Shown here piece by piece: positions 10,740-26,487 of a DNA stretch of 61,471 bases. Source of the DNA: a virus (lineage: Duplodnaviria > Heunggongvirae > Uroviricota > Caudoviricetes); the IMG/VR virus record IMGVR_UViG_3300012665_001805. One strand, written 5' to 3'. The notes beneath the pieces are model-generated. The model saw only the letters and a list, made by a program, of their open reading frames with translations. It was not told the DNA's origin and searched no databases. A program made the translations under genes and the position numbers. Each line of letters begins with the position of its first letter. Positions within the stretch are counted from its first letter, which is position 1.

Positions 10740-13700
10740 TTAGAAATTTGAATTTATTGTTACTTTATTTGCTAATTTATTTTTAGGTAATTCAAATATA
10801 ACTTCTACACCCAATGTATTATTAGTTGTTGCGTATAATAATTTATACCAAGCTGAATTGAATGCTTCTTTGTCTTCAGCGTTTAAGTTTTTGTATTGGG
10901 ATTGAGGACCATCGGTTTCAAACCATTCTTTAAGTCTTTTTATTGCACCTTCTTCATCATCCCCACCAAGAGCTTCAACTCCTTTATAATTTGTAAATAA
11001 AGGTTTTTCAGTATTTGAATAATTATCTTTTAATTGATAAATTTGAGAAAGATACCATATTAAATTATTAAACGCTTTAGCCGAATCTTCTGGTGTTGTG
11101 ACTGAAACATTAGATGATGCTGGTAGTTCTTTGTATTCATCTTTGATTCTAAACCAGTATACCATATATGGAGTTTCTGGTCTATTTCGATATACCATAG
11201 TTGAGCCATAATTATCTTTAACTGAAGTAGACCATCCTTTACCATTGTATTGGTTTCCAGTGTATATTTGGGCATGGAATCTATATTTTCCAGATGCATT
11301 TCCACGAGGGGCAGGTGTTGCATAATAAATTACTACATCACCATAATTAGCTTGGGTTGTAATGTAATCTACTTTATCGGCTGCTGATTTTACAGGAACA
11401 TTCGTTGCAACTGGTTGTAATGATTCAGGGGTATAAATTCCTAATTCATTAAGATGATTTCTTAATACTTCAGAATGGGCATCATTTCCACCTTTATTAG
11501 TGCCAGGGAATGAGGATTTTTTAGTAAGTTTTCTTGCTAATTCTTCAGCTATAATATAAGTATACCCTCCACATTTGCCTAATGCTTCTCCTTTACTTTT
11601 AAATATTGCAATAGCTGCTTCTTTAGCTGCTTTTTCTAATTTAGAATTAGTTTCTGATTTAGCTGGTGTTGGTAATGGGCTTTGTTCTCCTGTAGTACCA
11701 TCATATGATAAAGTTTCAGAGTCTGCTGTTTTTACAATTTGTGGAGGAAGAGTTGAGTCTTCTTGTTTAATTTTGCTTGATGCTTTTATAATTTTTTTAA
11801 CTCTGGTTTTTAATTCGGTGTAAGGTACAATTTTTTTACCATTTTCCTCGTCTTGAGCAATTACTACAGTCTCAATACTGGTTTCCCAATCATGTCCCGA
11901 AAGTTTATGATTAACTCCTTTGATAATAAATTTAAGAGAGTTTGGGTAGTTTTTAGGAAGGAAATTTGTATTAACATTTATTGAATTATATATCTTAATT
12001 CCAGACATTCCATCAAATGTTAAAGATAAACTAATTGGGATAAATCCAATAGTAGGGGACGCATAATTAGGAACGTCTTTTTGAATTTGTGTGTGGCAAT
12101 ATTTATAAAATTCAGTAACTGTAGATATATTTCTATCTATAATTTCTCCATTAATAGCACATGAATCAGGGTTTGAGACATCATCAGGAATATCTTGGGG
12201 TGCAGTTAATCCAAAGGCAGCAAAACGTTTATTCCAAAATTCTTGAACATACAATACTGAAGGGTCATTGTCAGTTTTATTAGAAGCTACTGTGGTTGCA
12301 GGAACAAATTCTTCTTTGAAAATATCAATTAATCCTTTATTCCATTTAGAAAACATTGTATTTTCTGTTCCTTTAACATAACCTCCTGCTGTTGAACCAA
12401 CAGATGCCATTGTAGCAAAATCATTGGTTATTTCAGTTTTTATATTAAAATTACGAACAAAGTTAGATTGGTTATTTCTAGAAGGATCATAACCATATAA
12501 TTCAAAAATATAATCAGTTGCTGGTTTACCTTCAGAATAACTAGCGTCTATAATTTTTATTGTATTTGTGTCTTCATCGACTATGGGTTCTAGGTTATTT
12601 ACACCCCCTAAAACTCGGTTTAATTCAGTACATATAGCTTGTAAAACTTCAAATATTGGAACATTTCCATCTTCATCTTGTTTTTCCCCAAGAATTCGAT
12701 TTACCATATTACAATTAAGATAAATATTCATTATTCTTGAATATCCATCTTTCTCATTTTTCCAATCAGGTAATGATAAATGATATTTTTTTGAATTAAT
12801 TGGTTCTTTATCATTTTTTACAATACAAACTCTAGGATCTAAAGACACATGATATGGGAAAGTATACATTCTATTACCTTCAACATTTGTATCTATAGTA
12901 ATAATAGGAGTATTAGCATTTTTAATTTTAAAAATTACTTTAGCGTTAATAAAATCAAGTAAATGTTTGAATCGTACATAAAAACCTTCATCATGGAGTA
13001 TGTCTTCATCACCCTCTAAATTATTGTAACTAAAATATACAAAATCATTTTTTTTCTGAGGAGTATCAAATCTTAATTTAAAAGTTTGGTTATAGAATAT
13101 AGTTCCACTTCCATCAGAATGATATATTGTATTAGAAATTTCTCCATCATCTTCTTGAAGATTGGAGATTATTTTTGATCTTTGATCTTCGTTAGCAAAT
13201 GCTATTTTTTGATTATACTTTGTTATTTGTATTGGGGCCTCTTTTGATGGAGCTGCTATGTATTTTGTTCTAACAGGTAAAAGTGTTCCATCACCAGTTC
13301 CAAATTTACTAGGACAATCATTAGTTTCCCAGTAACCTGAATTTTTTGAATCTATTAGGTATAATTTTTGAATAAAGAAATATGCCGAGATAAAATTACT
13401 TACAGGGCCTGGGGGTGTTTTACCTGAGGTAGATCCTTCAGCTTCTGGGTCTTCTGTAGTATCATCAAATATTTTATATGCTTCATTGATGAATTGAGAG
13501 ACATTTGAAGGTGGAGTTACATTACAGGATAAAGATTCAACAACATCTCCTAAACTAATAAGATTTATTTGAATATCATATGTTCCGTCTTGAGAAAATG
13601 TCCAACTAAAATTGGTTACTTTACAAAGTAAACCATCATAGTTTCCATCTTTTGCTGCTCTATATTGTTCTATTTGAGGTAAGAAACCCTGGTATGAAGA

Positions 13701-14312
13701 TTTTTTCCATTTATCATTAAAAAATCCTTCTTCATTTTCTATTAATGTGCTATAATCTGATTTGTAGCTTCCTTTATTATCAATGTATGAAGACCATCCC
13801 CATTCAAGAAACATAGTGTATCCTATTCGTAAATACAAAACATCTAATATTCTAAATTGCTCAGAGCTATAACATTTAATATTTACTGTTGCTTTTTTGA
13901 TTGAACCCCTATTTTCACATTTTATCTCAGTATCGGTAATCCCGGGCATGGGAACCATACCAAATTCACTGGAGTTATTTCCTGATAGGTTAACATCATA
14001 TACACCAGTTCCACGTCCGTATACCTTTGTTCTTGGGTTTAATTTTTTATCTTTAAGATTAGATAAACCACTAAATAAGACATATTGTTTTGCTAACGTA
14101 GCCCAACTACTTGCTTTAATACCTGATTCAGAAGGAAATTTATTTCCAATTCTAATACCAGAGGCCATTTTTACCCAAGCTGTTTTTGAATTCAAATAAG
14201 ATAATTGCTCAGGAGTACGATTTTCGTTTACTCCTGACCCATGGGCTTTTTGTCTTTGGTTAATTTGACCTCGTACGTATTTTCTAAATGGTTCTCCTAT
14301 TATGTTAGGCAT
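10740..14312 (-). CDS. Baseplate hub/tail-tip protein paralog B with C-terminal CHAP/NlpC-P60-like peptidase
   Basis: About 820 N-terminal aa paralogous to 14348..17587, ending in a gp27/gpD-like barrel (LTFDGMSGIKIYN...KGVNHKLSGHDWETSI); tip has GKCGGY (Cys), YGDVVIY and FHAQIYTG (His). Confidence 0.7.
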   Translation of the reverse strand: MPNIIGEPFRKYVRGQINQRQKAHGSGVNENRTPEQLSYLNSKTAWVKMASGIRIGNKFPSESGIKASSWATLAKQYVLFSGLSNLKDKKLNPRTKVYGRGTGVYDVNLSGNNSSEFGMVPMPGITDTEIKCENRGSIKKATVNIKCYSSEQFRILDVLYLRIGYTMFLEWGWSSYIDNKGSYKSDYSTLIENEEGFFNDKWKKSSYQGFLPQIEQYRAAKDGNYDGLLCKVTNFSWTFSQDGTYDIQINLISLGDVVESLSCNVTPPSNVSQFINEAYKIFDDTTEDPEAEGSTSGKTPPGPVSNFISAYFFIQKLYLIDSKNSGYWETNDCPSKFGTGDGTLLPVRTKYIAAPSKEAPIQITKYNQKIAFANEDQRSKIISNLQEDDGEISNTIYHSDGSGTIFYNQTFKLRFDTPQKKNDFVYFSYNNLEGDEDILHDEGFYVRFKHLLDFINAKVIFKIKNANTPIITIDTNVEGNRMYTFPYHVSLDPRVCIVKNDKEPINSKKYHLSLPDWKNEKDGYSRIMNIYLNCNMVNRILGEKQDEDGNVPIFEVLQAICTELNRVLGGVNNLEPIVDEDTNTIKIIDASYSEGKPATDYIFELYGYDPSRNNQSNFVRNFNIKTEITNDFATMASVGSTAGGYVKGTENTMFSKWNKGLIDIFKEEFVPATTVASNKTDNDPSVLYVQEFWNKRFAAFGLTAPQDIPDDVSNPDSCAINGEIIDRNISTVTEFYKYCHTQIQKDVPNYASPTIGFIPISLSLTFDGMSGIKIYNSINVNTNFLPKNYPNSLKFIIKGVNHKLSGHDWETSIETVVIAQDEENGKKIVPYTELKTRVKKIIKASSKIKQEDSTLPPQIVKTADSETLSYDGTTGEQSPLPTPAKSETNSKLEKAAKEAAIAIFKSKGEALGKCGGYTYIIAEELARKLTKKSSFPGTNKGGNDAHSEVLRNHLNELGIYTPESLQPVATNVPVKSAADKVDYITTQANYGDVVIYYATPAPRGNASGKYRFHAQIYTGNQYNGKGWSTSVKDNYGSTMVYRNRPETPYMVYWFRIKDEYKELPASSNVSVTTPEDSAKAFNNLIWYLSQIYQLKDNYSNTEKPLFTNYKGVEALGGDDEEGAIKRLKEWFETDGPQSQYKNLNAEDKEAFNSAWYKLLYATTNNTLGVEVIFELPKNKLANKVTINSNF

Positions 14313-14333
14313 AACTTATATGAATTAATTTAT

Positions 14334-14341
14334 TATAAATA
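14334..14341 (-). promoter_or_regulatory. Putative late promoter motif (coding strand TATTTATA)
   Basis: Exact copy of the recurring intergenic motif, upstream of hub paralog B. Confidence 0.6.
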
Positions 14342-14347
14342 TAACTA

Positions 14348-17300
14348 TTAAAATTGGTCTTTATATTTATTCCACCAATCTTGTCCTGGGGGTTGGGCAA
14401 TTGAATTTTTCTTGTAATTATATGCCCAACCATATACGTTATTTCCCCCACCAGTACTTCTCATTACAAAACTTCCACGACTGCCATCTTTAGAATATTT
14501 ACCAGCAGATGTAGATTGGTTACGTTTTTCAACACTCCCTTGGGTAATACTTAAAAAGTCTGTTCTACCTTGAATAAAGGATTTTGCTTGATTCTGATAT
14601 GCTGGGTCTCTTATGGTATCATATACCTCTTTAAGAGCTGCTATAGCTTTTTCATTAGTTTCATAACCAGGTTTTGTGGATTTTACAGCAGCGATAGCTG
14701 TAGCTTTACTGCTAATATTTTTCCATACTGTAGATGTTACTTGAGTTCCTTTAGCAAACGCTGGTTCGTACTGCCCATTAGATTTTACTACGGCTGCTAT
14801 TGAAGTTGAATATGCTCCTGATCCTACTCGATTGTAGATGGATTGGGCTACATCAGCGCGTCCTTGAGGATCTCCATCTTCAAAAATACAAATAGTTAAT
14901 AAAGACCAGAAATCAGCATCACCTCCTAACACAGCGTTACCTGTAGTAGCAGTTGGGGATGGACCATATGTTGAATTATCAAATTGGGTATCTCTTGGTG
15001 GTGTAACAATATCTGGTGGTAAATCTGGGTTTTCTGCGGCTATTTTAACTTGGGCAGTTTTAATAATTTTTTTAACTTCACTTTTTATTTGTTTATAACT
15101 AAGAAAAGGTTTACCATCTTTATCTGTATTTTGAGCAATTACTACTGTATCAATACTGGTTTCCCAATCATGTCCTGAAAGTTTATGATTAACTCCTTTT
15201 ACTATAAAGTTAAGTGATTCGGGGTATCGTTTAGGTAAAAATGAAGTATTGACATTTACAGCATTGTATATTTTAATTCCTGACATTCCATCAAATGTTA
15301 GGGATAAACTTATAGGGATAAAACCTGCTGTAGGAGATGCATATCTAGACTCTATTAATTGGATTCTTGATTGGCAATATTTATAAAATTCAGAAACAGT
15401 TTTAACATTTTTATCTATGATTTCTCCGCTAATGGCACAAGCATCAGGAGTTCCTACATCACTTGGGATATCTTGGGGTGCGGTAAGACCAAATGAAGCA
15501 AAACGTTTATTCCAAAATTCTTGAACATATAGATTTGATGGGTCTTTTTCATCTTTAGTAGTTGCAGATCCAACGGCCGGTAAAAATTCTTCTTTGAATA
15601 TATCAATTAACCCTTTATTCCATTTAGAAAACATTGTGTTTTCAACTCCTTTAACGTATCCACCAGCGGTTGAACCAACAGATGCCATAGTGGCAAAATC
15701 ATTAGTTATCTCAGTTTTAATAGCAAAATTACGGACGAAATTTGATTGGGTTTGGGATTTATTATATCCAAAAAGTTCAAATGTGTATGTTTTCTTTGCT
15801 GGAGGGGCATAACTAGCGTCTAGGATAGATAAAGTATTGGTATCTTCATCAAGAACAGGCTCTAAATTATTGACACCACCTAAAGCAGTATTTAATTCAT
15901 TACATATTGTTTGAAGTACCTCAAATAATGAAATATTACCTTCGTCATCTTGTTTTTCGTTCAAAATACGACTTACCATATTACAATTAAGGTAAATATT
16001 CATTGTATATCCAAACCCAGAAGCTGATTTCCAATGTGGTAATTTAGTGTGATATTCTTTGGTATTGATTGGTTCAGTATCATTTCTAACAATACACACT
16101 CTAGGATCTAATGATACTTGATAAGGAAATATATACATTTTATTATCCTTAGTATTGTTGTTTATCTGAATTATAGGTGTGTCTGTACTTTTTAATTTAA
16201 AGAGTAATTGGGTTCTGATAAAGTCTAGTAAATGTCCAAATCTAATATAGAATCCATCTTCATTTAATAAATCCTCATCATCTTCTAAAGTATTATAACT
16301 AAAGTAAACAAAATCATGTTTTCCTTGGTTACTATCAAAATTTAATGTAAATTTCTTTGAATGGGCTAATATGCCACTCCCATCACTATTTTGAACACTT
16401 CCCTCAGCAAATATAAATCCTCCTTCTTCAGAAATGTTTTGAATTAGTTCAGATTTTTGTTCTAAAGTTGAGTAAGATGTTCTTTCATTTGTTGAGAATG
16501 CTGTTAATTCAGCCTCTTTAGAGGGTTTTTTAATGAATTTTGTTCTAACTGGGATTGGTGTTTTTTTGGAGGAGAATGTACTTATACAATCATTCGCTTT
16601 CCAATATTCATTATTTGCTTCATTAATTAAGTATAACTTTTGAATAAAGAAATAAGCTGATAGCCAATTTCCTACAGGCCCAGGTGGTACTTTACCAGAA
16701 GATGATCCTTCGGCTGATGGGTCTTCTGCTTCATCGTTATAAATTTTATATGCGGCGTTTATAAAATCAGATATTTTGGATGGGGGAGTAGTATTTAATG
16801 TTAATGATTCAACAACATCTCCTAAACTAATTAAATTTAATTGGATGTTATAAGAACCATCTTGATTAAAATCCCATGAAAAATTAGTTACTTTACAAAG
16901 CAATCCATCATAATTTCCACTTTTATCAGCTCTATATTGTTCTATTTGAGGTAAAAAACCTTGATAAGAAGATTTTTTCCATTTATCATTAAAAAATCCT
17001 TCTTTTGATTCTATTAAAGTAGAGTAATCTGATATTAAGTTACCATTGTTGTCAAGAAATGGAGACCAACCCCATTCAAGAAACATAGTATATCCTATTC
17101 TTAAATAAAGTACATCAAGAATTCTAAATTGTTCTGCACTATAACATTTAAAGTTTATAGTAGCTTTTTTGATAGAACCTCGGTTTACACATTTTATTTC
17201 GGCATCTGTTATTCCAGGCATTGGTACTAAACCAAATTCACTTGAATTGTTACCTGCTAAGTTAACATCATATATTCCAGTTCCGTTCCCATATACTTTT

Positions 17301-17587
17301 GTTCTTGGATTTAATTTACCATCCTTAAGTTGGGACATTCCACTAAATAAAACATATTGTTTTGCTAATGTAGCCCAGCTACTTGCTTTAATACCCGTTT
17401 CGGATGGAAATTTACTTCCTATTTTTATACCTGAGGCTAATTTTACCCAGGCTGTTTTGGAATTTAAATAAGATAATTGTTCAGGAGTTCTGCTAGTTCC
17501 TAAAGTACCTGACCCATGAGCTTTTTGTCTCTGAGTAATCTGATTAGATACGTATGGTCTAAAAGGTTCTCCTATTATATTAGGCAT
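14348..17587 (-). CDS. Baseplate hub/tail-tip protein paralog A with C-terminal SleB-like (Hydrolase_2) cell wall hydrolase
   Basis: Same N-terminal body as paralog B; tip has ICIFEDGDPQGRADVAQSIYNRVGSGAYSTSIAAVVKSNGQYEP, matching the SleB E...G..AVA..I.NRV...I..VV...QF pattern. Confidence 0.72.
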   Translation of the reverse strand: MPNIIGEPFRPYVSNQITQRQKAHGSGTLGTSRTPEQLSYLNSKTAWVKLASGIKIGSKFPSETGIKASSWATLAKQYVLFSGMSQLKDGKLNPRTKVYGNGTGIYDVNLAGNNSSEFGLVPMPGITDAEIKCVNRGSIKKATINFKCYSAEQFRILDVLYLRIGYTMFLEWGWSPFLDNNGNLISDYSTLIESKEGFFNDKWKKSSYQGFLPQIEQYRADKSGNYDGLLCKVTNFSWDFNQDGSYNIQLNLISLGDVVESLTLNTTPPSKISDFINAAYKIYNDEAEDPSAEGSSSGKVPPGPVGNWLSAYFFIQKLYLINEANNEYWKANDCISTFSSKKTPIPVRTKFIKKPSKEAELTAFSTNERTSYSTLEQKSELIQNISEEGGFIFAEGSVQNSDGSGILAHSKKFTLNFDSNQGKHDFVYFSYNTLEDDEDLLNEDGFYIRFGHLLDFIRTQLLFKLKSTDTPIIQINNNTKDNKMYIFPYQVSLDPRVCIVRNDTEPINTKEYHTKLPHWKSASGFGYTMNIYLNCNMVSRILNEKQDDEGNISLFEVLQTICNELNTALGGVNNLEPVLDEDTNTLSILDASYAPPAKKTYTFELFGYNKSQTQSNFVRNFAIKTEITNDFATMASVGSTAGGYVKGVENTMFSKWNKGLIDIFKEEFLPAVGSATTKDEKDPSNLYVQEFWNKRFASFGLTAPQDIPSDVGTPDACAISGEIIDKNVKTVSEFYKYCQSRIQLIESRYASPTAGFIPISLSLTFDGMSGIKIYNAVNVNTSFLPKRYPESLNFIVKGVNHKLSGHDWETSIDTVVIAQNTDKDGKPFLSYKQIKSEVKKIIKTAQVKIAAENPDLPPDIVTPPRDTQFDNSTYGPSPTATTGNAVLGGDADFWSLLTICIFEDGDPQGRADVAQSIYNRVGSGAYSTSIAAVVKSNGQYEPAFAKGTQVTSTVWKNISSKATAIAAVKSTKPGYETNEKAIAALKEVYDTIRDPAYQNQAKSFIQGRTDFLSITQGSVEKRNQSTSAGKYSKDGSRGSFVMRSTGGGNNVYGWAYNYKKNSIAQPPGQDWWNKYKDQF

Positions 17588-17598
17588 AACATTTATTT

Positions 17599-17916
17599 TT
17601 AAACAACCGTATTCAAAGTTTCAAATTCTCCTAATATGGTTGAGATTCGTAATGGTGATGGTATTCTAATTTGTTCTCCTACATTTGGGTATAATGAATC
17701 AGGAATAGTGTTGTTAGCATTTGCTCTTGCTATAACCCACCATAGTGATGCATCCCCATAATAATTTAAAGCTAATAGATCATATCTATCACCTTTTGTA
17801 GTATACACATAGATATCATCATTTCCACGAACAATTGGAGGATACTTAACGTTTATGTATCTTCTTCTTGGGTCGTTAGGAGTTGTTACTATTTCTACTG
17901 ATGAGTATCTTGACAT
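17599..17916 (-). CDS. LysM-domain baseplate protein (gp53/Afp7-like)
   Basis: YTTKGDRYDLLALNYYGDASLWWVIARAN...GEQIRIP LysM/tail X pattern. Confidence 0.85.
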   Translation of the reverse strand: MSRYSSVEIVTTPNDPRRRYINVKYPPIVRGNDDIYVYTTKGDRYDLLALNYYGDASLWWVIARANANNTIPDSLYPNVGEQIRIPSPLRISTILGEFETLNTVV

Positions 17917-17928
17917 GGGTGATTCTTA

Positions 17929-19947
17929 TTAGGAATTTGTTTTTGATTGTTGGTTAATAAATTGGTGATCTCCATTAAATTGGGATTCAGGTCTAAAGTT
18001 ATGAATAACATTAAACTTAATCCCGGATACTTTAATATAAAGTGGAAGTTGATCACCTTCTGTTATTTCCCATGGAGTTTCCTCCTCTATAGCATATTGA
18101 AGACCTGTCATTACACCCCATTGACCATAAATGTAATTTCCTACTGTTAATCTATGTAAATTTCCAGCCATATACCCTTGTGAAGTATATGTTGGAGCTA
18201 AAGAGGCAGCTAATGTATTTAACTGGGTATACATTTTATTTAATTGGGTTTTATTATCTGCTACAATAGTAAATCCTAAAGAAATATTTCTATTAAATGA
18301 ATCATATTTAAAGAATTTTTCACCTCTACCCATATATGATTGTTCTTTCCAACTAGCACCATATGAATCACTAAAATCGTCTATATATGCTCTAAAATTT
18401 AATGTGGTTTGTTTATTAGCTGGGTTTCTAGGGTCTACAATTGCAATTTTAAAATTAATTAGATCATTTCCACTATCAATATTAGCAGATTCACGCAGTC
18501 GAGAATTAGAATAGTATATCTTATCAACAATTTTAGCGCTTTTACCAATATAATCTTTTGAATCCGTGATATAATCGTGATTATTAGGAGCATCAGCAAA
18601 CCCACGTATGCTTCTATCGGTTTTTCTAAAATCAGCTGCTATACCTCTAGGGTATTGATTTAATGTGTATGCTAATTGACCTTCTGTAGTATAGTAATAT
18701 CCTGCGTTTTTGTCTAAGTTTGCTAGGTATCCTTCCTTGTGAGATTTTGGCGATACATCATATTTTTGATTTAGATTATCATTCCATAATGTATTTCTTG
18801 AAGAATATACATCTAAAGGCTTATTTAATGGATCTGTAGCTACAAATGTAGTTGAACCTGATGTGGTAAATACTATAGGGTCAATAACAATTTGTCTTCC
18901 ACTTCCATTTACTCCTGCTGTTGAACCTAATCCTGATGAATTAAGGATTCTATTAATAGGAGAAACATATTTAATACTTCCTGAGTTTCTTGTGATTACT
19001 TCATATGAAGAAGTTAAATATGATTTAATATCTGATCTTGCTGTTAATGATCCAGATGCATATACGGAATTGGAATAGTCGTATTGGTATGTAGTTCTTC
19101 CTTGTTGGGTTAAATTAGGAGGAGTAGGGAATGTTTGGCCTGATTGGGAGGTAAAAGCATTTGAAACTCCTAGTGGAATCTGAAATTTATCAGGTTCAAT
19201 TTGATCTAATGGTTTTCCTACTAAATAACTTTTTTCTTTACCTGACTTTAATGGATTTATTCCTCCATTATCAGTAGCATATTTTATTAAAGTATCTCCT
19301 ACGCCTACTACCGATCCAGGACCTCCTGAGTAGGATAAGATTATTCCATTTCCAGGATTGTTTAGTTTATATCCTGTTACACCATTAAGACTTGTATCAT
19401 CAGTAACATTTGTGGCTATTAAATCAGTTAATTTAACTAATCTATTAGTTTCTTTAAAGTTTTCAACAGATTGCTCGTTTATAGCGGTCTGATATGTTCT
19501 AATATCAGCATCAGGAAAAATACCTGTTGGGTCTAATCCTTGTTTATTAAAGTGAGTTCCTAAAAATCCAGCACCTGCTTGAGCTACTGTTGAAAATAAT
19601 GGATTGTAAATTCCTTCATTTATTGCACTACCACCATATGCAACACCTTTAGTTGCTTCTGTTTTTACACCTGTTCTTGATAGTAATTGTTGTTTCGCAA
19701 TAAATGCTACACCTGGGGGTGTAACAAAATATTGAGTTAAACGAAGAACATCATTAGCTGCGTCTTTAGGTGCATTAATTCCTCCTCGTAATAAAAAATC
19801 AGTATCTAAAGCAGATGGTTGATTTTGATCACCTATAGGACTTTGAATGAATGGTTGTCCACTATCACCTCCACCTGGTCTATCATTACCGAATTTAAGT
19901 GATTTAAGTGAGGTATCCCCATTGTTTAATTTTATTAAAAGCCCCAT
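17929..19947 (-). CDS. Baseplate/tail-tube initiator-like protein
   Basis: C-terminal LNFRAYIDDFSDSYGASWKEQSYMGRGEKF..Y.SFNRNISLGF resembles tube-fold baseplate initiator domains; lies between TMP and LysM genes. Confidence 0.55.
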   Translation of the reverse strand: MGLLIKLNNGDTSLKSLKFGNDRPGGGDSGQPFIQSPIGDQNQPSALDTDFLLRGGINAPKDAANDVLRLTQYFVTPPGVAFIAKQQLLSRTGVKTEATKGVAYGGSAINEGIYNPLFSTVAQAGAGFLGTHFNKQGLDPTGIFPDADIRTYQTAINEQSVENFKETNRLVKLTDLIATNVTDDTSLNGVTGYKLNNPGNGIILSYSGGPGSVVGVGDTLIKYATDNGGINPLKSGKEKSYLVGKPLDQIEPDKFQIPLGVSNAFTSQSGQTFPTPPNLTQQGRTTYQYDYSNSVYASGSLTARSDIKSYLTSSYEVITRNSGSIKYVSPINRILNSSGLGSTAGVNGSGRQIVIDPIVFTTSGSTTFVATDPLNKPLDVYSSRNTLWNDNLNQKYDVSPKSHKEGYLANLDKNAGYYYTTEGQLAYTLNQYPRGIAADFRKTDRSIRGFADAPNNHDYITDSKDYIGKSAKIVDKIYYSNSRLRESANIDSGNDLINFKIAIVDPRNPANKQTTLNFRAYIDDFSDSYGASWKEQSYMGRGEKFFKYDSFNRNISLGFTIVADNKTQLNKMYTQLNTLAASLAPTYTSQGYMAGNLHRLTVGNYIYGQWGVMTGLQYAIEEETPWEITEGDQLPLYIKVSGIKFNVIHNFRPESQFNGDHQFINQQSKTNS

Positions 19948-19957
19948 TTAGTATATC

Positions 19958-20173
19958 TTATTGAGGTGGATTGTCTAAATATTTTGGTGGAGTTACACCA
20001 TTCAAATCCAATGTAGATGGAGTTGGGAATCCTGTTAATGAAGGATTACCGTTAATTGAATAGGCGTTATGTAAAGTTGATTGTGGATCATTCATTGTTA
20101 CGGGTGTTGGAGTAGTTCCATTGAATTCACTTAATGTAGATCCATCATTTACTAATTTGTCTAATAGTCCCAT
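19958..20173 (-). CDS. Hypothetical small protein (tail module)
   Basis: 71-aa ORF; its MGLL N-terminus is shared with the next gene; motif upstream. Confidence 0.6.
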   Translation of the reverse strand: MGLLDKLVNDGSTLSEFNGTTPTPVTMNDPQSTLHNAYSINGNPSLTGFPTPSTLDLNGVTPPKYLDNPPQ

Positions 20174-20204: not shown

Positions 20205-22796
20205 TTATTGAATTTTTAATGTTGAAACAGTTCTATCTTTTCTCATTTGTTGTTCTCTCAAGTCATTACCTCTTCTCATTTCTTCTACCATTAACGTATT
20301 TGAATCAGGTGATGATGGAGTAGGGGCAGTACTGTTAGCTACTGTGATTGATCCTTTAGGACCTGACATAACATCATCACCTTTTTTAAATAAATCAGTT
20401 CCAGCTATTACTGTATCTCTATTATTTAATTGAATAGCACCTTCAGGACCCATTAAAGTACGTTTACCATACCCTGTTGATCCTTCTCCGGGAGACATAA
20501 CATCATTACCCTTCATAAGGTTATATCCTAAGGCTACAGCACTGGCTGCCGCTGCGGCTCCAAGAACTGGTCCTACAAAAGGGATAGCAGCTACTGATTT
20601 GAATGCTGTCATAGCAGCTTCAGCAATGGTTTTAAGTAATCCTTTTTGTTTAATGCTATTTAATAATACTTCTTTTTCAAGACCTAGTGTTTTTAAAACT
20701 AAATCTTTTTTATCCATAATGTATTGGTATGTAGAATACATCCAACCTTCTTTTTGTTTAAAAGCTATAGCTTGTTGAGTTATCAAAATTCCAGCAAGGA
20801 CTGTTCCAAATGTAATTAATCCTGGGATTGAATTGGTAATTAAATCTTTTATAGAAGTAAATACAGATGCTATGGTTTGAACTGTAAATACAATAGGTTG
20901 AAATAAAATATTTACCATAGGAAGAACAGTTGACACTAAATCCATAATTGGAGATATAAATGCTAAAACAGGTTCTGCTAAACTTACAAATACTTCTTGT
21001 AATTTTTCAGTAGCTTGAGCAAAACGTTCTTGAACTGATTGTTGAGCATATTGATTTGCTAATTGTTCATTTCCTAATTGTTTTTTGGCTTCTTCTAACC
21101 CAACTTGTTTAACTAAGTTATTAAATTTTTCTTGGGCATCTTTACCTTCAACTCCTGATAGTTTAGTTAGGGCTTCTCTGTCCATTAAAGATTGAGCTAA
21201 TTCATCTTTAGTTAAACCTGCTGCTTTTGCTATTGCTTCTTGTTGGATAGCATTCATATTAGCGAAGTCTGCCGATGTACCAACTTGTTTAGCTATTTCC
21301 TCAGCGGCTCCTGCGATATCGTTATTAAGCGCTAATTGGCGCGCTGTTTCTAGGTTTAGATTTTTACCAGTTAATAATTCAGCACTTAATTCATCTTCAA
21401 TGGATGATTCAAAATTAAGTAAACTTTCAGACATTTTAGCAGCTTGATCAAGAGACAAACCAAATTGTTTCGTTTGTACTACTGCTTCAGCTACTGCTTC
21501 AGCACTACCACCTAACGATAATTTTAAAGAAGCCGAAGCTTTTGATACTTCTTTTAATACCTCTTTTTCGTTTACAACAAATCCTTTTCGTGAAGCATAT
21601 GCTTGAGCTCCACCTAAAATTTCAGCTGTATTTTCTTCTAATGTTTTACCATTTACTAAAGATAATTTTTGAATACCTGCTAATTCTTCGTTAGTATATC
21701 CTGCTTGTTCTCTTAATTTAGTGAATGTTACTAAATCTTTTTCGTTTAATTTAGCATTGGTTCCTAATGATTGACCAACAGCCATATATGTTTCTTGTAA
21801 TCCCCTAGTATTTAAAGCTGCATCACCTGACATGGTTGCCATATTTCCTAATTCTTTACGGACATTTAAGGCTTCTCCATAGGTCATATTCATTTGTTTA
21901 GCCATATCACCAGCACCTTTATCAGTTGCTTGTAATGCTTTACCAAATTCCTTAACTAAAATTGCAGGATCTAATAAATTTTTACCAAGACTAGAGACCA
22001 TTGATTTAACTCCGGCACCCATAACCTTAAATTTATTACCCATAGTAGCTGCGTTTTCACCTCCTTCGGTGATTTTGTCAGCCATTTCTTCCATTTTAGC
22101 TTGAGCTTCATCTAATCCTAACTTATCAGATAAACTTCCCATCCCTAACCCTTTAAGACCTTCGGATATTGCTTTAGTAGCATTACCTGAAAGGCCTAAG
22201 GCGTCTTCCATATTCTTAGCTTTTCTACCAGCTTCGTCTAATTGATCTTCGAATTGTTTAATGAATCCAATATTCTCAGTAATTTCTTGAGTAATATTAG
22301 CATGGGCAGCTCGGGCTTCTTCTAATTGTTTTTGTTCTTTATTTGAAAGATTATTTCTAGATTCTAAGGCTTTGATTTGATCTTTAGCTAATTTACCTGC
22401 TAATTTTAGATCATTTGTTCTTTCAGCAGATTGTTTTTTTAAGTTAGCTATTTCTTTAGAAGATAATTTATTAATACCTTCTTGGTGAGATTGTAATTTT
22501 TGTGCTAAACTAGCTAAATTACTAAAAGATGAACGAGCGGCTTTAGTTCCACTGTTCATATTTTTTATTTCATCAACAATACGAGTAAAACCTTCTCTAG
22601 TTCCTGCGACATCATTGGTATAGTCTTTCCATTCGTCTCTTAACCCTTGAACTAGGCGTTCAGCAGTATTTAAATCTTCATTAATGTTATCTAAACTAGC
22701 TGCAGATAATTCATCACCTAACTGTTTAGCTAGTTTCTTTCCTTCTGCGATAAGTTTATTTAACTTTTCTTGATCTGCTGGGGATAATTGAGCCAT
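20205..22796 (-). CDS. Tail tape measure protein
   Basis: 863 aa, helical Ala/Leu/Lys/Glu-rich, hydrophobic late segment, phage-type C-terminal NDVMSPG...GAIQLNNRDTVIAGT; directly follows the tail chaperones. Confidence 0.85.
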   Translation of the reverse strand: MAQLSPADQEKLNKLIAEGKKLAKQLGDELSAASLDNINEDLNTAERLVQGLRDEWKDYTNDVAGTREGFTRIVDEIKNMNSGTKAARSSFSNLASLAQKLQSHQEGINKLSSKEIANLKKQSAERTNDLKLAGKLAKDQIKALESRNNLSNKEQKQLEEARAAHANITQEITENIGFIKQFEDQLDEAGRKAKNMEDALGLSGNATKAISEGLKGLGMGSLSDKLGLDEAQAKMEEMADKITEGGENAATMGNKFKVMGAGVKSMVSSLGKNLLDPAILVKEFGKALQATDKGAGDMAKQMNMTYGEALNVRKELGNMATMSGDAALNTRGLQETYMAVGQSLGTNAKLNEKDLVTFTKLREQAGYTNEELAGIQKLSLVNGKTLEENTAEILGGAQAYASRKGFVVNEKEVLKEVSKASASLKLSLGGSAEAVAEAVVQTKQFGLSLDQAAKMSESLLNFESSIEDELSAELLTGKNLNLETARQLALNNDIAGAAEEIAKQVGTSADFANMNAIQQEAIAKAAGLTKDELAQSLMDREALTKLSGVEGKDAQEKFNNLVKQVGLEEAKKQLGNEQLANQYAQQSVQERFAQATEKLQEVFVSLAEPVLAFISPIMDLVSTVLPMVNILFQPIVFTVQTIASVFTSIKDLITNSIPGLITFGTVLAGILITQQAIAFKQKEGWMYSTYQYIMDKKDLVLKTLGLEKEVLLNSIKQKGLLKTIAEAAMTAFKSVAAIPFVGPVLGAAAAASAVALGYNLMKGNDVMSPGEGSTGYGKRTLMGPEGAIQLNNRDTVIAGTDLFKKGDDVMSGPKGSITVANSTAPTPSSPDSNTLMVEEMRRGNDLREQQMRKDRTVSTLKIQ

Positions 22797-24282: not shown

Positions 24283-26487
24283 TTATCTAATAAGATTAAC
24301 ATTTCCTGTAACTGAATATTTGTGACCGTTATTTTTATCGCCAAATTGAATATCAAAAACATATGACCCTGAAGAACATGGTTTATTATTGTATGTTCCA
24401 TCCCAATAAGATGTAGCATCATATGTTTCAAATATAATTTCTCCCCATCTGTTATAAATTAATGCTTTAAAATCATATGGATCAAATCCACTTGTAAATA
24501 CAAATTTTAAAACATTATTGTATTCATCTCCATCAGGTGTAAATGAGTTTGCTATATAAAATAACAATTCAGGACATTGAATTACAGACACATATGCTAC
24601 TTGTGGATTAGAAACACATCCATTAGCGTAATGTACTACTGATACTTGATGAGTACCAACAGAATCCCATACAAGGGTTTGGGTTAATGAATTTTGAATA
24701 TATTGTTGATTACCCCAAGTCCATTCATTATAGCCAGCAGGATTACCTATAGCATTCCAAGTAATACTAGCTGTATCTAATTCACATAATTCAAAATAAG
24801 TATTGTGTGGTATAATTGAATCAATTGTTGGAGTAGGATAAACAGTAATTAAAGTTGTATCATCAAACATACACCCACTAAGTGTATATTCATAAATAAT
24901 GGTATCAAGTCCAACAGCTGTTCCGGGAGTAAAATCAAATCCAACCATACCCGGTCCGGAAATAGTACCTCCTAGTGGGGATACTTGTAAAGTAACAAAT
25001 TCATCATATTCACAGAACGGACCAACAGGATCTATGGTAGGTAAAACGTTTAAAACGTTTAAATCGATAGACAAAGGTAAGCTAGGGCAGTTGTTGCTGT
25101 TATAACCTGTTACTTGAATCGCGCCAGGAATGAATCCACTAGATATAGAACTCCAATTCACATTAATTGTATCAGTTCCTTGTCCATTAAATATATTTCC
25201 AACAGAAGACCATTGATATGTGTATCCTGCTTGGAAAGGTACTGAATATATTTCGTTTGGTGAGTTAAAGCAAACTGTATCACTAAATGTAATTGGTCCT
25301 ATAATTGGAATTGGTGGGTTTATTAAAGTAACTACTCCACTTACGTTACATCCTTGTGAATCTGTAATAGTATAGTTATAGATACCTCCACATAAACTAG
25401 TTGGATTAAATCCAGTAGGTCCATTCCAAGATATAGTTTGTACTCCACTACCCCCATTAGGACTAATCATAATTTCACCATCACAGCTTAAATTACAAGT
25501 AGGATTAATAGCAAATACTGTTGGTAATGGTAAATTAGGAGGACCAGGTTGAACAAATACTGTATCAGGTCCTAACCCAGCTATAGCATTACAAGTATTC
25601 CATCCTGCATTACAAATAGGGTAAACAAATTTACAAGTATATTGAGCACCTATAGCAGGTGGGGTAACAGTAAGGGTAGGTCCTGTTCCTATTGGGTTTG
25701 GATTTCCTACTCTATACCAAGTTAATACAGGATTAACTGTTGGACCATTAGGTACCCATCTCCAAGCATCATTATTTGCAGTCCAAACAGTTGAGTTTCT
25801 ACCAGGTACAGGTATTCCTATAGTACCAGCAGCATTATGAATACCTTCAACAGAAGTACCTCCTTGCCATACTTGACAATCGGGTTTATCTTGAATATAA
25901 TTGTCTATATAATTAGTTGATTCATGAATAACAATATGGAATGTTCCTTGATTTCCCGTACAACTAAACATAGGTACACCAACCCAACTTACAATTAATT
26001 TTCTACATGGAGCTACACCTACAGTTTGATATTTGATTTGACCCCCAATTCCGGGATGCCAATCTTGCCAAGGTCCCATAATACAATTTTTAGGAACTAA
26101 AGCATTACCTGTTGGGATAGTTTGAGAAGTAAAAGTTGTGGGTTGTCCTCCAGAGAATGAAATCCATCCATTTGAACCTATATAAAATTGAGAATATGTT
26201 TGTCCAAAGAAACAAAATGTAAATCCTATATTAAATGGTCCTTGTTGAGAATCATCTGTCATGAAGACATTAGTTCCATTATTGACTTGAGCAACATAAG
26301 GAATGCTAGTTACAGCATAATCTGTTGTTTGTTTGGGACCCGGACCACCAGGACCACACTGACTTAAATCTGCGGTTAATGTAGTTGATCCTACACCACA
26401 AGGTAAAAATTGATCAGGTCCTAGAGCAGGACAATATTGACTATATCCTATATTAGCCAGTAAAAGAAATATTAGTAAGTTTTTCAT
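24283..26487 (-). CDS. Secreted adhesin-like protein with T9SS type B (gliding motility-associated/CHU_C) C-terminal sorting domain
   Basis: Signal peptide MKNLLIFLLLANIGYS|Q; NIDO-like region (DDSQQGPFNIGFTFCFFG...SNGWISF); SprB-like repeat (TCNLSCDGEI...YTITDSQGC); PKD-like repeat; CTD FYIANSFTPDGDEYN...IYNRWGEIIF...WDGTYN...GSYVF...GNVNLIR. Confidence 0.88.
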   Translation of the reverse strand: MKNLLIFLLLANIGYSQYCPALGPDQFLPCGVGSTTLTADLSQCGPGGPGPKQTTDYAVTSIPYVAQVNNGTNVFMTDDSQQGPFNIGFTFCFFGQTYSQFYIGSNGWISFSGGQPTTFTSQTIPTGNALVPKNCIMGPWQDWHPGIGGQIKYQTVGVAPCRKLIVSWVGVPMFSCTGNQGTFHIVIHESTNYIDNYIQDKPDCQVWQGGTSVEGIHNAAGTIGIPVPGRNSTVWTANNDAWRWVPNGPTVNPVLTWYRVGNPNPIGTGPTLTVTPPAIGAQYTCKFVYPICNAGWNTCNAIAGLGPDTVFVQPGPPNLPLPTVFAINPTCNLSCDGEIMISPNGGSGVQTISWNGPTGFNPTSLCGGIYNYTITDSQGCNVSGVVTLINPPIPIIGPITFSDTVCFNSPNEIYSVPFQAGYTYQWSSVGNIFNGQGTDTINVNWSSISSGFIPGAIQVTGYNSNNCPSLPLSIDLNVLNVLPTIDPVGPFCEYDEFVTLQVSPLGGTISGPGMVGFDFTPGTAVGLDTIIYEYTLSGCMFDDTTLITVYPTPTIDSIIPHNTYFELCELDTASITWNAIGNPAGYNEWTWGNQQYIQNSLTQTLVWDSVGTHQVSVVHYANGCVSNPQVAYVSVIQCPELLFYIANSFTPDGDEYNNVLKFVFTSGFDPYDFKALIYNRWGEIIFETYDATSYWDGTYNNKPCSSGSYVFDIQFGDKNNGHKYSVTGNVNLIR

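What the first reader, a model, noticed from the sequence alone, without database searches (positions are those of the whole stretch)
10740..17587. Two tandem baseplate hub paralogs with different peptidoglycan-cutting tips
Seen: 1079-aa and 1190-aa proteins that are clearly paralogous for about 820 aa (both start MPNIIGEPFR), then diverge right after HDWETSI.TVVIAQ. Paralog A ends in a SleB/Hydrolase_2-like domain (about 14350-14930; a glycan-strand enzyme). Paralog B carries a Cys/His CHAP/NlpC-like domain (about 11130-11640; a peptide-stem enzyme). B has its own upstream motif (14334). Known: this mirrors evolved VgrG proteins with swappable C-terminal effectors. Inference: the phage builds heterotrimeric tips with two complementary wall hydrolases, or two virion types for different hosts - a polymorphic tail-tip system.
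Basis: partly seen in the sequence, partly recalled or inferred. Interest (0 to 1): 0.8.

Follow-up and report, generated by a model that had tools for sequence, protein, structure and literature searches.

The report
Twin phage tail hubs, different wall-cutters
A large uncultured phage of Flavobacterium-type bacteria carries two adjacent copies of the central tail-tip (hub) gene, each ending in a different cell-wall-cutting enzyme, and close relatives swap these enzyme ends like cassettes. Hub-enzyme fusions are known; a duplicated hub with two different enzymes is an apparently undescribed twist.

Summary
Two intact minus-strand genes (14348-17587, 1079 aa; 10740-14312, 1190 aa) share a body about 830 aa long at 72% identity, then diverge after a shared helix and linker near residue 865.

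- **Body:** the predicted fold matches gp27-type baseplate hubs (T5 pb3, Mu gp44, T4 gp27, VgrG) at Z 8-11.7. The roughly 325-residue hub core is split by large insertions.
- **Tip A:** a distant Hydrolase_2/SleB-family domain, with Glu903 invariant among its relatives.
- **Tip B:** a family with no Pfam model. It has invariant Cys914 and His1013 and a confident papain-like fold, closest to the cell-wall amidases Tae3, CHAP and NlpC/P60. A separate 120-aa module of unknown function follows it.
- **Selection:** both copies are under purifying selection (dN/dS about 0.1).
- **Relatives:** the pair recurs in independent samples. A relative about 90% identical in DNA has exactly tip A replaced by a different lysozyme cassette. 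Across relatives this body carries at least 11 Pfam wall-hydrolase families.
- **Copy number:** about 70 of 75 loci have one copy, and one has three.
- **Promoter:** B has its own copy of a recurrent late-gene upstream motif.

Whether A and B mix in one trimer or give different virions could not be tested. This is a new variant of a known kind.

The parts
14348..17587 (-). Hub paralog A gene (1079 aa): gp27-type hub body, helix and linker, then a SleB-like tip
   Evidence: ORF and translation. It has an 85%-identical orthologue with the same tip in L090/L091. dN/dS is 0.096 against the L003 orthologue.
15098..17587 (-). Body of A (residues 1-830): gp27-like hub core, with aligned residues spanning about 44-820 and interrupted by large insertions
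   Evidence: AF2 model with pLDDT 77 and pTM 0.76. Foldseek top hit is T5 pb3 at E 2.8e-8. In VIA-align, 49 of the 50 top chains are hub or VgrG proteins at Z 6.6-11.7; for example pyocin R2 hub aligns 283 of 318 residues and Mu gp44 271 of 325.
14936..15097 (-). Helix (831-849) and Pro-rich linker of A, still similar to B; the tether between body and enzyme
   Evidence: DSSP on the model and the BLASTP alignment running to residue 881. That it acts as a flexible tether is inference.
14351..14935 (-). Tip A (residues 885-1079): Hydrolase_2/SleB-family domain; candidate catalytic Glu903 at 14879-14881
   Evidence: PF07486 at 30.2 bits against a cut-off of 27, covering profile positions 5-61 of 100. 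Glu903 is invariant in 12 homologues. 94 of 100 ESM Atlas feature hits are Hydrolase_2 clusters. tblastn finds SleB-annotated cyanophage genes.
14353..14992 (-). Exchanged cassette: the only stretch of the hub genes with no DNA similarity to relative L003, which is 88-93% identical elsewhere; L003 has a Phage_lysozyme2 (PF18013) tip here
   Evidence: blastn of the window against L003. The L003 tip hits PF18013 at E 9.4e-26.
14328..14344 (-). Late-gene upstream motif (coding strand TTATATTTATAATAAAT) in the 35-nt A-B spacer; candidate promoter of B's own
   Evidence: 11 of 16 + strand TATAAATA matches lie 6-26 nt upstream of minus-strand gene starts, including the sheaths, tube, tape measure and B. 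Promoter function is inferred. The generic sigma-70 scan was uninformative.
10740..14312 (-). Hub paralog B gene (1190 aa): hub body, helix and linker, Cys-His amidase tip, then a C-terminal module
   Evidence: ORF and translation. Orthologues are present in L003/L004 and L090/L091. Body dN/dS is 0.114.
11823..14312 (-). Body of B (residues 1-830), 72% identical to the body of A
   Evidence: It matches the hub-body HMM over positions 1-850.
11109..11690 (-). Tip B domain 1 (residues 875-1068): papain-like Cys-His amidase fold; Cys914 at 11571-11573, His1013 at 11274-11276
   Evidence: Cys, His, Asp, Gln, Trp and Asn are invariant in 50 homologues. AF2 model has pLDDT 91. VIA-align top hit is Tae3 4hz9_A at Z 8.2 with 114 of 118 residues aligned, followed by CHAP endolysins, Tse1 and NlpC/P60. 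Nearest annotated Atlas folds are NlpC/P60, CHAP, Tae4 and Amidase_6. dN/dS is 0.11.
10743..11108 (-). Tip B domain 2 (residues 1069-1190): separate module of unknown function, which also follows CHAP-like tips in relatives
   Evidence: No Pfam or Atlas hit. It is shared at 36-38% identity with the ends of the L006, L008 and L010 tips, whose enzyme domain is different. It occurs independently in other proteins.
17599..17916 (-). Context: 105-aa LysM-like baseplate protein directly before hub A, conserved in all relatives
   Evidence: phrog_7145 baseplate wedge subunit at E 1.2e-12, plus weak Phage_tail_X and gp53 hits. Synteny in L002-L006 and in phage immuto.
10109..10738 (-). Context: conserved 209-aa gene directly after the hub gene(s); function unknown
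   Evidence: No family hit. It is 52% identical to the gene in the same position in L005, L086 and L087.

Best explanation
Both genes encode the central baseplate hub of a contractile-tailed phage of Bacteroidota. This is the gp27-type trimer that caps the tail tube and is the first part driven into the cell envelope. Each copy carries a peptidoglycan hydrolase on a helix and a Pro-rich tether. Copy A has a SleB-like glycan-strand enzyme. Copy B has a Cys-His papain-like amidase or endopeptidase acting on the peptide part, plus an accessory module. Both are late genes, and B has its own promoter-like motif. The segments of the body that form the tube-like barrels are the most alike between A and B. 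I therefore think the two proteins most likely co-assemble into mixed trimers, so one tail tip cuts both the glycan and the peptide bonds of the wall during penetration. The enzyme ends are cassettes exchanged by recombination at the linker. Shown here: the hub fold, the tip folds and families, the conserved catalytic-type residues, purifying selection on both copies, recurrence of the pair and the cassette swap. Inferred: enzyme activities, presence in the virion and mixed trimers. I put mixed trimers specifically at about 0.4.
For: Hub fold: Foldseek and VIA-align lists consist almost wholly of gp27, Mu gp44, T5 pb3 and VgrG-type hubs. The gene sits after the tape measure and the LysM-like protein, as in phage immuto. 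Tip A. Tip B. Both copies are intact and constrained, with dN/dS 0.096 and 0.114 against L003. The pair is present in six contigs from different samples and in a lineage only 60% identical. In every case the first copy has a glycan-type tip (PF07486 or PF18013) and the second a tip B-family domain. Cassette swap. The family carries PF18013, VanY, M15_4, GH19, CHAP, DUF5675, GH24, M23, SLT, Glucosaminidase and Hydrolase_2 tips. In L005 the tip is a separate gene after a tipless body. For co-assembly: A/B identity is 80-90% in residues 47-240 (1-240 overall), 83% and 78% in 599-695, and 80% in 746-795, against 36-65% in the middle insertions. At the N-terminus this reflects constraint rather than recent gene conversion (dS 1.04, dN/dS 0.11). 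Both genes carry or follow the late-gene motif. One relative has three hub equivalents, the number of subunits in a hub trimer. Published precedent for hub-hydrolase fusions: PMC2147016 and PMC7048315.
Against: There are no virion or expression data. No test of A-B binding was possible. Tip A covers only 57 of the 100 Hydrolase_2 profile positions and finds no solved SleB structure by sequence. Tip B matches no Pfam or PDB sequence, its best structural Z of 8.2 is middling by the tool's own calibration, and Foldseek found nothing below E 0.016. About 70 of 75 related loci manage with one hub gene, so a second copy is not needed for infection. Conserved interfaces would equally allow separate homotrimers.
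Confidence: 0.7

Rival explanations
1. Two kinds of virion. A and B each form homotrimers, so a burst contains particles with a glycan-cutting tip and particles with a peptide-cutting tip. This would be bet-hedging against wall states such as growth phase or cross-linking, or against different strains.
For: B has its own promoter-like motif, so the A:B ratio could be tuned. The middle insertion domains differ strongly, at 36% identity over residues 339-383. From my own knowledge, unverified here, lactococcal phages Tuc2009 and TP901-1 produce mixed populations with full-length or truncated Tal that suit different wall states.
Against: Both proteins are made in the same cell at the same stage and their barrel segments are 80-90% identical, so nothing seen here would keep them apart. 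The constant glycan-plus-peptide pairing suits joint action on one wall.
Confidence: 0.2
2. Different places. One paralog is the hub proper and the other stacks on it along the tail axis as a second ring or spike substitute, as gp5 sits under gp27.
For: No gp5- or gpV-type spike gene was recognised next to the hub. gp27-type rings are built from tube-like domains that stack on hexameric rings (established knowledge of T4 and Mu baseplates).
Against: Most relatives have a single copy with the same neighbours, so no second position is required. A and B keep the whole body at full length with the same invariant residues. Specialisation to a new position would be expected to reshape one of them.
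Confidence: 0.1
3. One copy is not structural. It would be a redundant duplicate on its way to loss, or a soluble lysis or assembly helper.
For: Single-copy relatives are the rule. L089 holds two 99%-identical copies, showing that neutral recent duplicates, or assembly artefacts, exist.
Against: dS between A and B is above 1, yet both remain intact with dN/dS of about 0.1. The pair is retained across lineages that are about 60% identical in the body. The whole 830-aa assembly body is conserved in both, which a soluble enzyme would not need.
Confidence: 0.05

Closest known systems
Tail-associated lysins (Tal) of Gram-positive siphophages, e.g. S. aureus phage 80alpha gp59 (PMC7048315) and lactococcal Tuc2009/TP901-1 Tal (from my own knowledge)
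   Same: A gp27-like trimeric hub domain at the N-terminus and a wall-degrading domain at the C-terminus, encoded after the tape measure gene. 80alpha 6v8i_AE and phage NF5 Tal 9m7n_A are among the structural matches.
   Different: Here the phage is contractile-tailed with a Gram-negative (Bacteroidota) host. The hub core is split by about 450 residues of insertions. There are two paralogous genes with different enzymes rather than one.
Bacillus thuringiensis myophage 0305phi8-36 gp147 (PMC2147016)
   Same: A gp27-homologous hub of a large myophage fused to peptidoglycan-degrading domains, with the domains replaced between relatives. The authors already proposed that lysin domains are imported onto hub proteins.
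   Different: gp147 puts several enzymes (transglycosylase, NlpC/P60, M23) on one chain. Here two enzyme types are spread over two duplicated hub genes.
Evolved VgrG spikes of type VI secretion, e.g. V. cholerae VgrG-3 with a wall-degrading end (from my own knowledge)
   Same: A gp27-type core with exchangeable C-terminal effector domains and several paralogs per genome, which are reported to form mixed trimers. VgrGs are among the fold matches. The nearest folds to tip B are the T6SS amidases Tae3 and Tse1.
   Different: There is no gp5-like beta-helix in the model. This is a phage virion part, not a secretion system. Mixed trimers are not shown here.
Phage T5 pb3 baseplate hub protein (7zqp_b, 7zhj_b)
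   Same: It is the best Foldseek match (E 2.8e-8). It is a long (949 aa) hub protein whose hub domains carry large extra domains and which closes the tube by itself.
   Different: T5 is a siphophage and pb3 has no lytic domain. TM-scores are low (0.28-0.30) and sequence identity is about 10%.
Diffocin hub (8v3w_H)
   Same: The same chain matches the body through its residues 1-327 (Z 10.6) and matches tip B through its residues 463-581 (Z 4.5). It is thus a contractile-particle hub with a C-terminal NlpC/P60-like domain.
   Different: It is a single gene in a bacteriocin. The tip match is weak.
Flavobacterium phage vB_FspM_immuto gp033 'carboxypeptidase' (NC_055915)
   Same: It is the nearest cultured relative of the body (27% identity over 63% of the query, E 9e-29), with the same gene order from sheath to hub.
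   Different: It has one hub gene and one annotated sheath gene in the stretch examined, and a different tip.

Membership tests
gp27-type baseplate hub (T4 gp27, Mu gp44, P2 gpD, T5 pb3, Tal N-domain, VgrG core) | Hub fold of about 325 residues, including the tube-like barrel domains | tested here: met
   49 of the 50 best VIA-align chains are hubs at Z 6.6-11.7. They align 200-310 residues and cover nearly whole small hubs, for example pyocin R2 283 of 318 and P1 298 of 335. Foldseek gives 7 hits at E <= 0.001, all tail tip or baseplate entries.
gp27-type baseplate hub | Gene lies in the tail module downstream of the tape measure gene | tested here: met
   The order is sheath, tube, tape measure, 672-aa protein, LysM-like 105-aa protein, hub A, hub B. 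The same order is seen in immuto and in L002-L006.
gp27-type baseplate hub | Sequence-profile match to a curated hub family | tested here: inconclusive
   Neither full protein gave a Pfam or PHROG hit for the body, and phmmer found no PDB hit. The family is too divergent for these profiles.
gp27-type baseplate hub | Forms a trimer at the tip of the tail tube in the virion | not testable with these tools
   The trimer of about 2500 residues exceeds the 1000-residue limit of complex prediction. There are no virion data.
Hydrolase_2 / SleB-CwlJ cell wall hydrolases (PF07486) | Profile match at or above Pfam's gathering score | tested here: met
   The domain scanned alone gives 30.0-30.2 bits against a cut-off of 27. 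In the full protein it gives 26.2 bits, just under the cut-off. The match covers only profile positions 5-61 of 100.
Hydrolase_2 / SleB-CwlJ cell wall hydrolases (PF07486) | Conserved catalytic glutamate in the first helix | tested here: inconclusive
   Glu903 (FED motif) is invariant in 12 homologues. Its equivalence to the SleB catalytic Glu rests on my recollection of the family motif, not on an alignment to a solved SleB; profile search of the PDB found none.
Hydrolase_2 / SleB-CwlJ cell wall hydrolases (PF07486) | SleB-type transglycosylase fold | not tested
Papain-like peptidoglycan amidases and endopeptidases (NlpC/P60, CHAP, Tae families) | Alpha+beta fold with the catalytic Cys at the start of a helix and the His on a beta strand, in that order | tested here: met
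   The invariant Cys (model residue 40) opens helix 40-56 and the invariant His (139) lies in strand 138-143. Top structural matches are Tae3 (Z 8.2, 114 of 118 residues), CHAP endolysins, Tse1 and many NlpC/P60 enzymes. Atlas neighbours are NlpC/P60 (TM 0.50 by query / 0.51 by match), CHAP, Tae4 and Amidase_6.
Papain-like peptidoglycan amidases and endopeptidases (NlpC/P60, CHAP, Tae families) | Match to the Pfam CHAP (PF05257) or NLPC_P60 (PF00877) profile | tested here: not met
   None of the 50 family members matched either profile at E <= 1. One member gave a weak Amidase_6 hit at E 0.0047. Tip B is therefore a separate, unnamed family within the fold class and should not be filed as CHAP.
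Papain-like peptidoglycan amidases and endopeptidases (NlpC/P60, CHAP, Tae families) | Cleaves peptidoglycan peptide or amide bonds | not testable with these tools
   This needs an enzyme assay.
Polymorphic tip systems (evolved VgrG-like) | Same conserved body with unrelated C-terminal domains in close relatives | tested here: met
   The window and L003 are 88-93% identical in DNA except at 14353-14992, where SleB-like is replaced by PF18013. 52 distinct tips fall into 29 similarity groups and at least 11 Pfam families.
Polymorphic tip systems (evolved VgrG-like) | Paralogs co-assemble into mixed trimers | not testable with these tools
   See above; there is only indirect sequence evidence.

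The most novel reading that the evidence does not exclude
The hub is a designed mixed trimer. Duplicated hub genes, two here and three equivalents in relative L083, each contribute one subunit with a different wall enzyme. A single three-fold tail tip would then be a multi-tool cutting glycan and peptide bonds at once, with each blade separately exchangeable by recombination. That would be the first asymmetric, multi-gene central hub described in a phage. It would also be a phage counterpart of mixed VgrG trimers.
Probability: 0.3. Interest if true: 0.75.

Novelty: new variant of a known kind. Interest (0 to 1): 0.58.

Why it matters
How phages of Gram-negative bacteria breach the wall layer is usually explained by one enzyme on the tail tip. 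Here the central hub gene itself has been duplicated, and each copy is armed with a different class of wall-cutting enzyme. The arrangement is kept under selection in several lineages, and the enzyme ends are exchanged between near-identical phages.

If the copies mix in one trimer, the three-fold tip of a tail can be built from different genes. That would change how baseplate maps of such phages should be interpreted.

The family also offers two practical resources. One is a catalogue of natural fusion points for wall hydrolases on a conserved scaffold. The other is an unnamed, widespread Cys-His amidase family (tip B) that current annotation misses.

Tried and rejected
- **Sequence searches that found nothing.**
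  - Pfam and PHROGs gave nothing for the body or for tip B.
  - phmmer and profile searches of the PDB gave nothing for the full proteins, tip A or tip B.
  - Pfam gave nothing for ten non-hub proteins that carry the tip B domain.
  - Pfam and Atlas gave nothing for tip B domain 2.
- **Foldseek on tip B.** No hit fell below E 0.016. The fold assignment rests on VIA-align and Atlas.
- **'Stand-alone' tip B proteins as independent evidence.** P0125 (251 aa) proved to be the end of a hub gene that is split by an inserted 235-aa ORF, so it adds nothing.
- **Recent gene conversion between A and B.** Rejected: dS is about 1.04-1.07 everywhere tested, including the most similar N-terminal part.
- **Simple one-duplication orthology.** I tested whether all A bodies form one clade and all B bodies another. 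The AU test rejects both groupings (p 3e-4), although I named them after seeing the tree. Bodies cluster by lineage. Either the duplication happened twice, or early concerted evolution erased the signal. I could not tell which.
- **Link between the hub and sheath duplications.** Rejected: four single-hub relatives also have two sheath genes.
- **L089.** Its two tandem copies are 99% identical. This is either a very recent duplication or an assembly artefact, so I did not count it as a pair with different tips.
- **Generic promoter and terminator scan.** Promoter-like hits were no more frequent than in shuffled sequence (52 against a mean of 58.6).
  - No whole genome is held for this window.
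  - I did not use complex prediction. At 72% identity a pass would not separate homotrimers from mixed trimers anyway.

Full report
**What is there**

All genes of the window lie on the minus strand. Two adjacent ORFs, 14348-17587 (A, 1079 aa, P0001) and 10740-14312 (B, 1190 aa, P0002), have no internal stops.
- BLASTP gives 616/887 identities (69%). Over the first 830 columns they are 71.8% identical.
- Both start MPNIIGEPFR.
- Similarity continues past the HDWETSI.TVVIAQ motif for about 40 residues, through a predicted helix (831-849) and a Pro-rich linker, and then stops.
- The two genes are 74% identical in DNA, so the pair is not an assembly artefact.

**Setting**

PHROG and Pfam scans of the neighbours give a contractile-tail module. 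In the direction of transcription it reads:
- two sheath genes, then the tube gene;
- a T9SS-type exported protein;
- a PHROG 'baseplate hub' gene of 244 aa;
- the tape measure gene;
- a 672-aa protein;
- a 105-aa LysM-like baseplate protein;
- hub A, hub B and a conserved 209-aa gene;
- then replication genes (DNA polymerase-like, SSB, UvsX-like, exonuclease, DnaB-like helicase, ribonucleotide reductase).

The nearest cultured phage is Flavobacterium phage vB_FspM_immuto. It has the same order but one such gene, annotated 'carboxypeptidase' (27% identity, E 9e-29). Earlier notes of this scan on the same genome describe it as a large freshwater phage of Flavobacterium-type hosts. No whole genome is held for the window. 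The protein database reports a 171.5-kb contig for both proteins.

**The body is a baseplate hub**

I folded residues 1-850 of A with a 50-sequence alignment (pLDDT 77, pTM 0.76).
- Foldseek against the PDB puts phage T5 pb3, the baseplate hub protein, first (E 2.8e-8). DT57C, AlgoCIS, phi812, Mu gp44, MuSo2, T4 gp27, VgrGs and diffocin follow.
- In the VIA-align second look, 49 of the 50 best chains are hub proteins at Z 6.6-11.7.
- Small hubs are covered almost completely: pyocin R2 283 of 318 residues, Mu gp44 271 of 325, P1 298 of 335. The aligned model residues span 44 to 820.
- The body is therefore a gp27-type core split by roughly 450 residues of insertions.
- No curated sequence profile recognises it.
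- The family's most conserved sequence motif (KG[TV]ENTM, residues about 646-652) lies in a segment the model cannot place (pLDDT below 50 for 628-660 and 665-680). This suggests a segment that is ordered only in the assembly.

**Tip A**

- Residues 908-971 match Pfam Hydrolase_2 (SleB/CwlJ family). The score is 30.2 bits when the tip is scanned alone (cut-off 27) and 26.2 bits in the whole protein.
- The match covers positions 5-61 of the 100-position profile.
- In an alignment with 11 relatives, Glu903 in a FED motif is invariant, as is the AQSIYNR block.
- 94 of 100 ESM Atlas feature neighbours are Hydrolase_2 clusters.
- tblastn finds cyanophage genes, one annotated SleB.
- Two relatives (P0245, P0246) carry this domain behind a different N-terminal part. 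By eye it resembles a spike N-terminal domain; I did not test that.

Tip A is thus a distant Hydrolase_2 member. That the family cuts glycan strands is established knowledge for SleB and is not tested here.

**Tip B**

- Residues 875-1068 hit nothing in Pfam, PHROGs or the PDB by sequence.
- An exhaustive HMMER search found 109 representatives. Most are C-terminal ends of proteins of about 1000 aa.
- In 50 aligned members, Cys914, His1013, Asp992, Gln1015, Trp1027 and Asn1034 are invariant.
- The AF2 model is confident (pLDDT 91, pTM 0.89). The Cys opens a helix and the His sits on a strand.
- Foldseek found nothing significant; its best hit was the T6SS amidase Tse1 at E 0.016.
- An all-against-representatives VIA-align search put the T6SS amidase Tae3 first (Z 8.2, rmsd 3.4, 114 of 118 residues). 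CHAP endolysins, Tse1 and many NlpC/P60 enzymes follow.
- The nearest annotated Atlas folds are NlpC/P60, CHAP, Tae4 and Amidase_6.
- A Z of 8 is middling by the tool's own calibration. The uniform list together with the invariant Cys and His in the right places makes a papain-like wall amidase or endopeptidase the sensible reading.
- It is not a member of Pfam CHAP or NLPC_P60.
- Residues 1069-1190 are a separate module. It also follows a different, weakly CHAP-like enzyme domain in the tips of L006, L008 and L010. It has no recognisable family.

**Both copies are kept, and the tips move**

The body family is large, with more than 603 database clusters.
- Relatives L003/L004 are 88-93% identical to the window in DNA throughout, except at 14353-14992. 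There the SleB-like tip is replaced by a Phage_lysozyme2 (PF18013) tip. Their B gene keeps tip B at 92% identity.
- L090/L091 carry the same SleB-plus-tip B pair as the window.
- L002, only about 60% identical in the body, again has a first copy with PF18013 and a second with a tip B-family domain.
- dN/dS between the window and L003 is 0.096 for body A, 0.114 for body B and 0.11 for tip B domain 1.
- So neither copy is decaying. In all three paired lineages a glycan-type tip is combined with a Cys-His amidase tip.

**How common is this?**

In 79 IMG/VR loci plus the assembly loci, a body HMM finds one copy in about 70 of 75 distinct loci.
- Exceptions are the window clade, L002 and L083.
- L083 has three hub equivalents. 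One is a full copy with a tip of unknown family. One is split into an N-terminal third fused to PF18013 and a C-terminal part with its own tip. One is a full copy with a CHAP-like tip.
- L089 has two 99%-identical copies, which may be an artefact.
- 52 distinct tips include PF18013 (5), VanY (3), Peptidase_M15_4 (3), Glyco_hydro_19 (2), CHAP (2), DUF5675, GH24 lysozyme, M23, SLT, Glucosaminidase, Hydrolase_2 and about ten tip B domains.
- In L005 the body is tipless and a PF18013 protein is encoded by the next gene.

**History of the duplication**

- A careful maximum-likelihood tree puts all paired genes in one clade (support 99/99). Within it the two L002 copies are sisters (100/100), and the window/L003 A and B groups are sisters (100/99).
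- Forcing A with A or B with B across lineages is rejected (p-AU about 3e-4). I named these groups after seeing the tree.
- dS between A and B is saturated (about 1.07), also in the most similar N-terminal part (1.04). There has therefore been no recent gene conversion.
- Either the duplication arose twice in sister lineages, or early homogenisation blurred a single event.
- Single-copy neighbours in the tree carry tip B or CHAP-like tips. The amidase tip thus looks ancestral and the glycan-type tip looks added with the extra copy; this is inference.

**Expression signals**

- The 35-nt spacer before B holds ATATTTATAAT on the coding strand. Of 16 + strand matches to TATAAATA, 11 lie 6-26 nt upstream of minus-strand gene starts, a zone making up 3.8% of the window. 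These include both sheaths, the tube, the tape measure and B.
- A lacks the motif and follows the LysM-like gene by 11 nt.
- B therefore probably has its own late promoter, while A is read from the motif before the 71-aa gene at 20173. Promoter function is inferred.

**Mechanism**

My best reading is as follows. Both proteins are virion hub subunits. On contraction the hub is pushed through the outer membrane, and the tethered enzymes open the wall locally, one attacking glycan strands and the other the peptide part.

Dual-activity tail lysins are known on single chains, for example gp147 of phage 0305phi8-36 (PMC2147016). Here the two activities sit on two duplicated hub genes.

I favour mixed trimers (about 0.4) for four reasons:
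- Both are late genes of one module.
- A/B identity is 80-90% over residues 1-240 and 80% over 746-795, the segments the model shows as beta-barrel domains, against 36-65% in the insertions.
- That similarity reflects constraint rather than conversion.
- The largest copy number seen equals the three subunits of a hub.

Separate homotrimers giving two virion types (0.2), stacked positions (0.1) and a non-structural copy (0.05) remain open. None of these could be tested.

**Comparison with known systems and verdict**

Fusions of gp27-type hubs with wall hydrolases, and exchange of those domains, are well documented. Examples are the Tal proteins (PMC7048315), 0305phi8-36 gp147 (PMC2147016), and the diffocin hub chain that matches both my body and my tip B models. 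Multiple VgrG paralogs with different ends are standard in type VI secretion.

Four full-text searches found no description of tandem hub paralogs with different lytic tips in a phage. That is absence in the searched library only.

I rate this a new variant of a known kind: a solid and well-supported observation of moderate interest. It would be of higher interest if mixed trimers are shown.

Noticed in passing
window 27104-29275 and 29322-31430 (minus strand): Two tandem tail sheath paralogs (723 and 702 aa, 49% identical), each preceded by the late-gene motif. Four single-hub relatives also have two sheath genes, so this older duplication is independent of the hub duplication. A text search turned up jumbo phage PaBG (PMC7412058) under the phrase 'two tail sheath'; I did not read that paper.
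   Followed up: partly
window, 11 sites: 14334, 20190, 22813, 24270, 27079, 29289, 31453, 33794, 43347, 47320, 54904: Recurrent motif with coding-strand consensus about AATATTTATAATAAAA, lying 6-26 nt upstream of structural-gene starts. It is a likely late promoter. It differs from the early motif TTCGTATATT noted earlier on this genome.
   Followed up: partly
window about 15548-15703 (residues 628-680 of hub A; same block in B): The most conserved sequence block of the whole hub family (TEITNDFATMA..GGYVKGTENTMFSKWNKGL) is the part AlphaFold cannot place (pLDDT below 50). It may be a plug or a partner-binding segment, like the refolding plug of T5 pb3 (my own recollection). Not tested.
   Followed up: no
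L083 5920-16105: A relative with three hub equivalents in a row. The middle one is split after the N-terminal third, which is fused to a Phage_lysozyme2 domain. There are thus four tip positions: PF18013, a CHAP-like domain, and two that matched no Pfam family or other tip in the set. L059 and L060 show a similar split as single copies.
   Followed up: partly
L086 1-3036 (also L088): A hub gene broken into pieces, with a 235-aa ORF of no known family inserted between the body's end and the tip B part. This may be a mobile insertion. The 251-aa 'free' tip B protein in databases comes from this.
   Followed up: partly
L089 1714-8083: Two tandem hub genes of 1060 aa that are 99% identical, differing only near both ends. 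This is either a very recent duplication or a metagenome assembly artefact.
   Followed up: partly
window 10743-11690 compared with 11823-14312: Between the window and L003, synonymous divergence of tip B (dS 0.20) is far lower than that of the B body (0.69). The tip and downstream DNA thus share a more recent ancestor than the body, which indicates mosaic recombination.
   Followed up: no
window 20507-20936 (inside the tape measure gene 20205-22796): There is no DNA similarity to L003 in this stretch, and the tape measure proteins differ in length (863 against 878 aa). This is a variable segment in an otherwise 88-93% identical region.
   Followed up: no
window 17929-19947: By eye, the C-terminal 150 residues of the 672-aa protein between the tape measure and the hub resemble a tail-tube-type domain, as in tube initiator proteins. 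No family hit was found and it was not folded.
   Followed up: no
window 24283-26487: A 734-aa protein with PKD-like, SprB-repeat and CHU_C (T9SS sorting) domains sits inside the tail operon. It is conserved in L003/L004 and L090. Another agent of this scan has already reported it.
   Followed up: no
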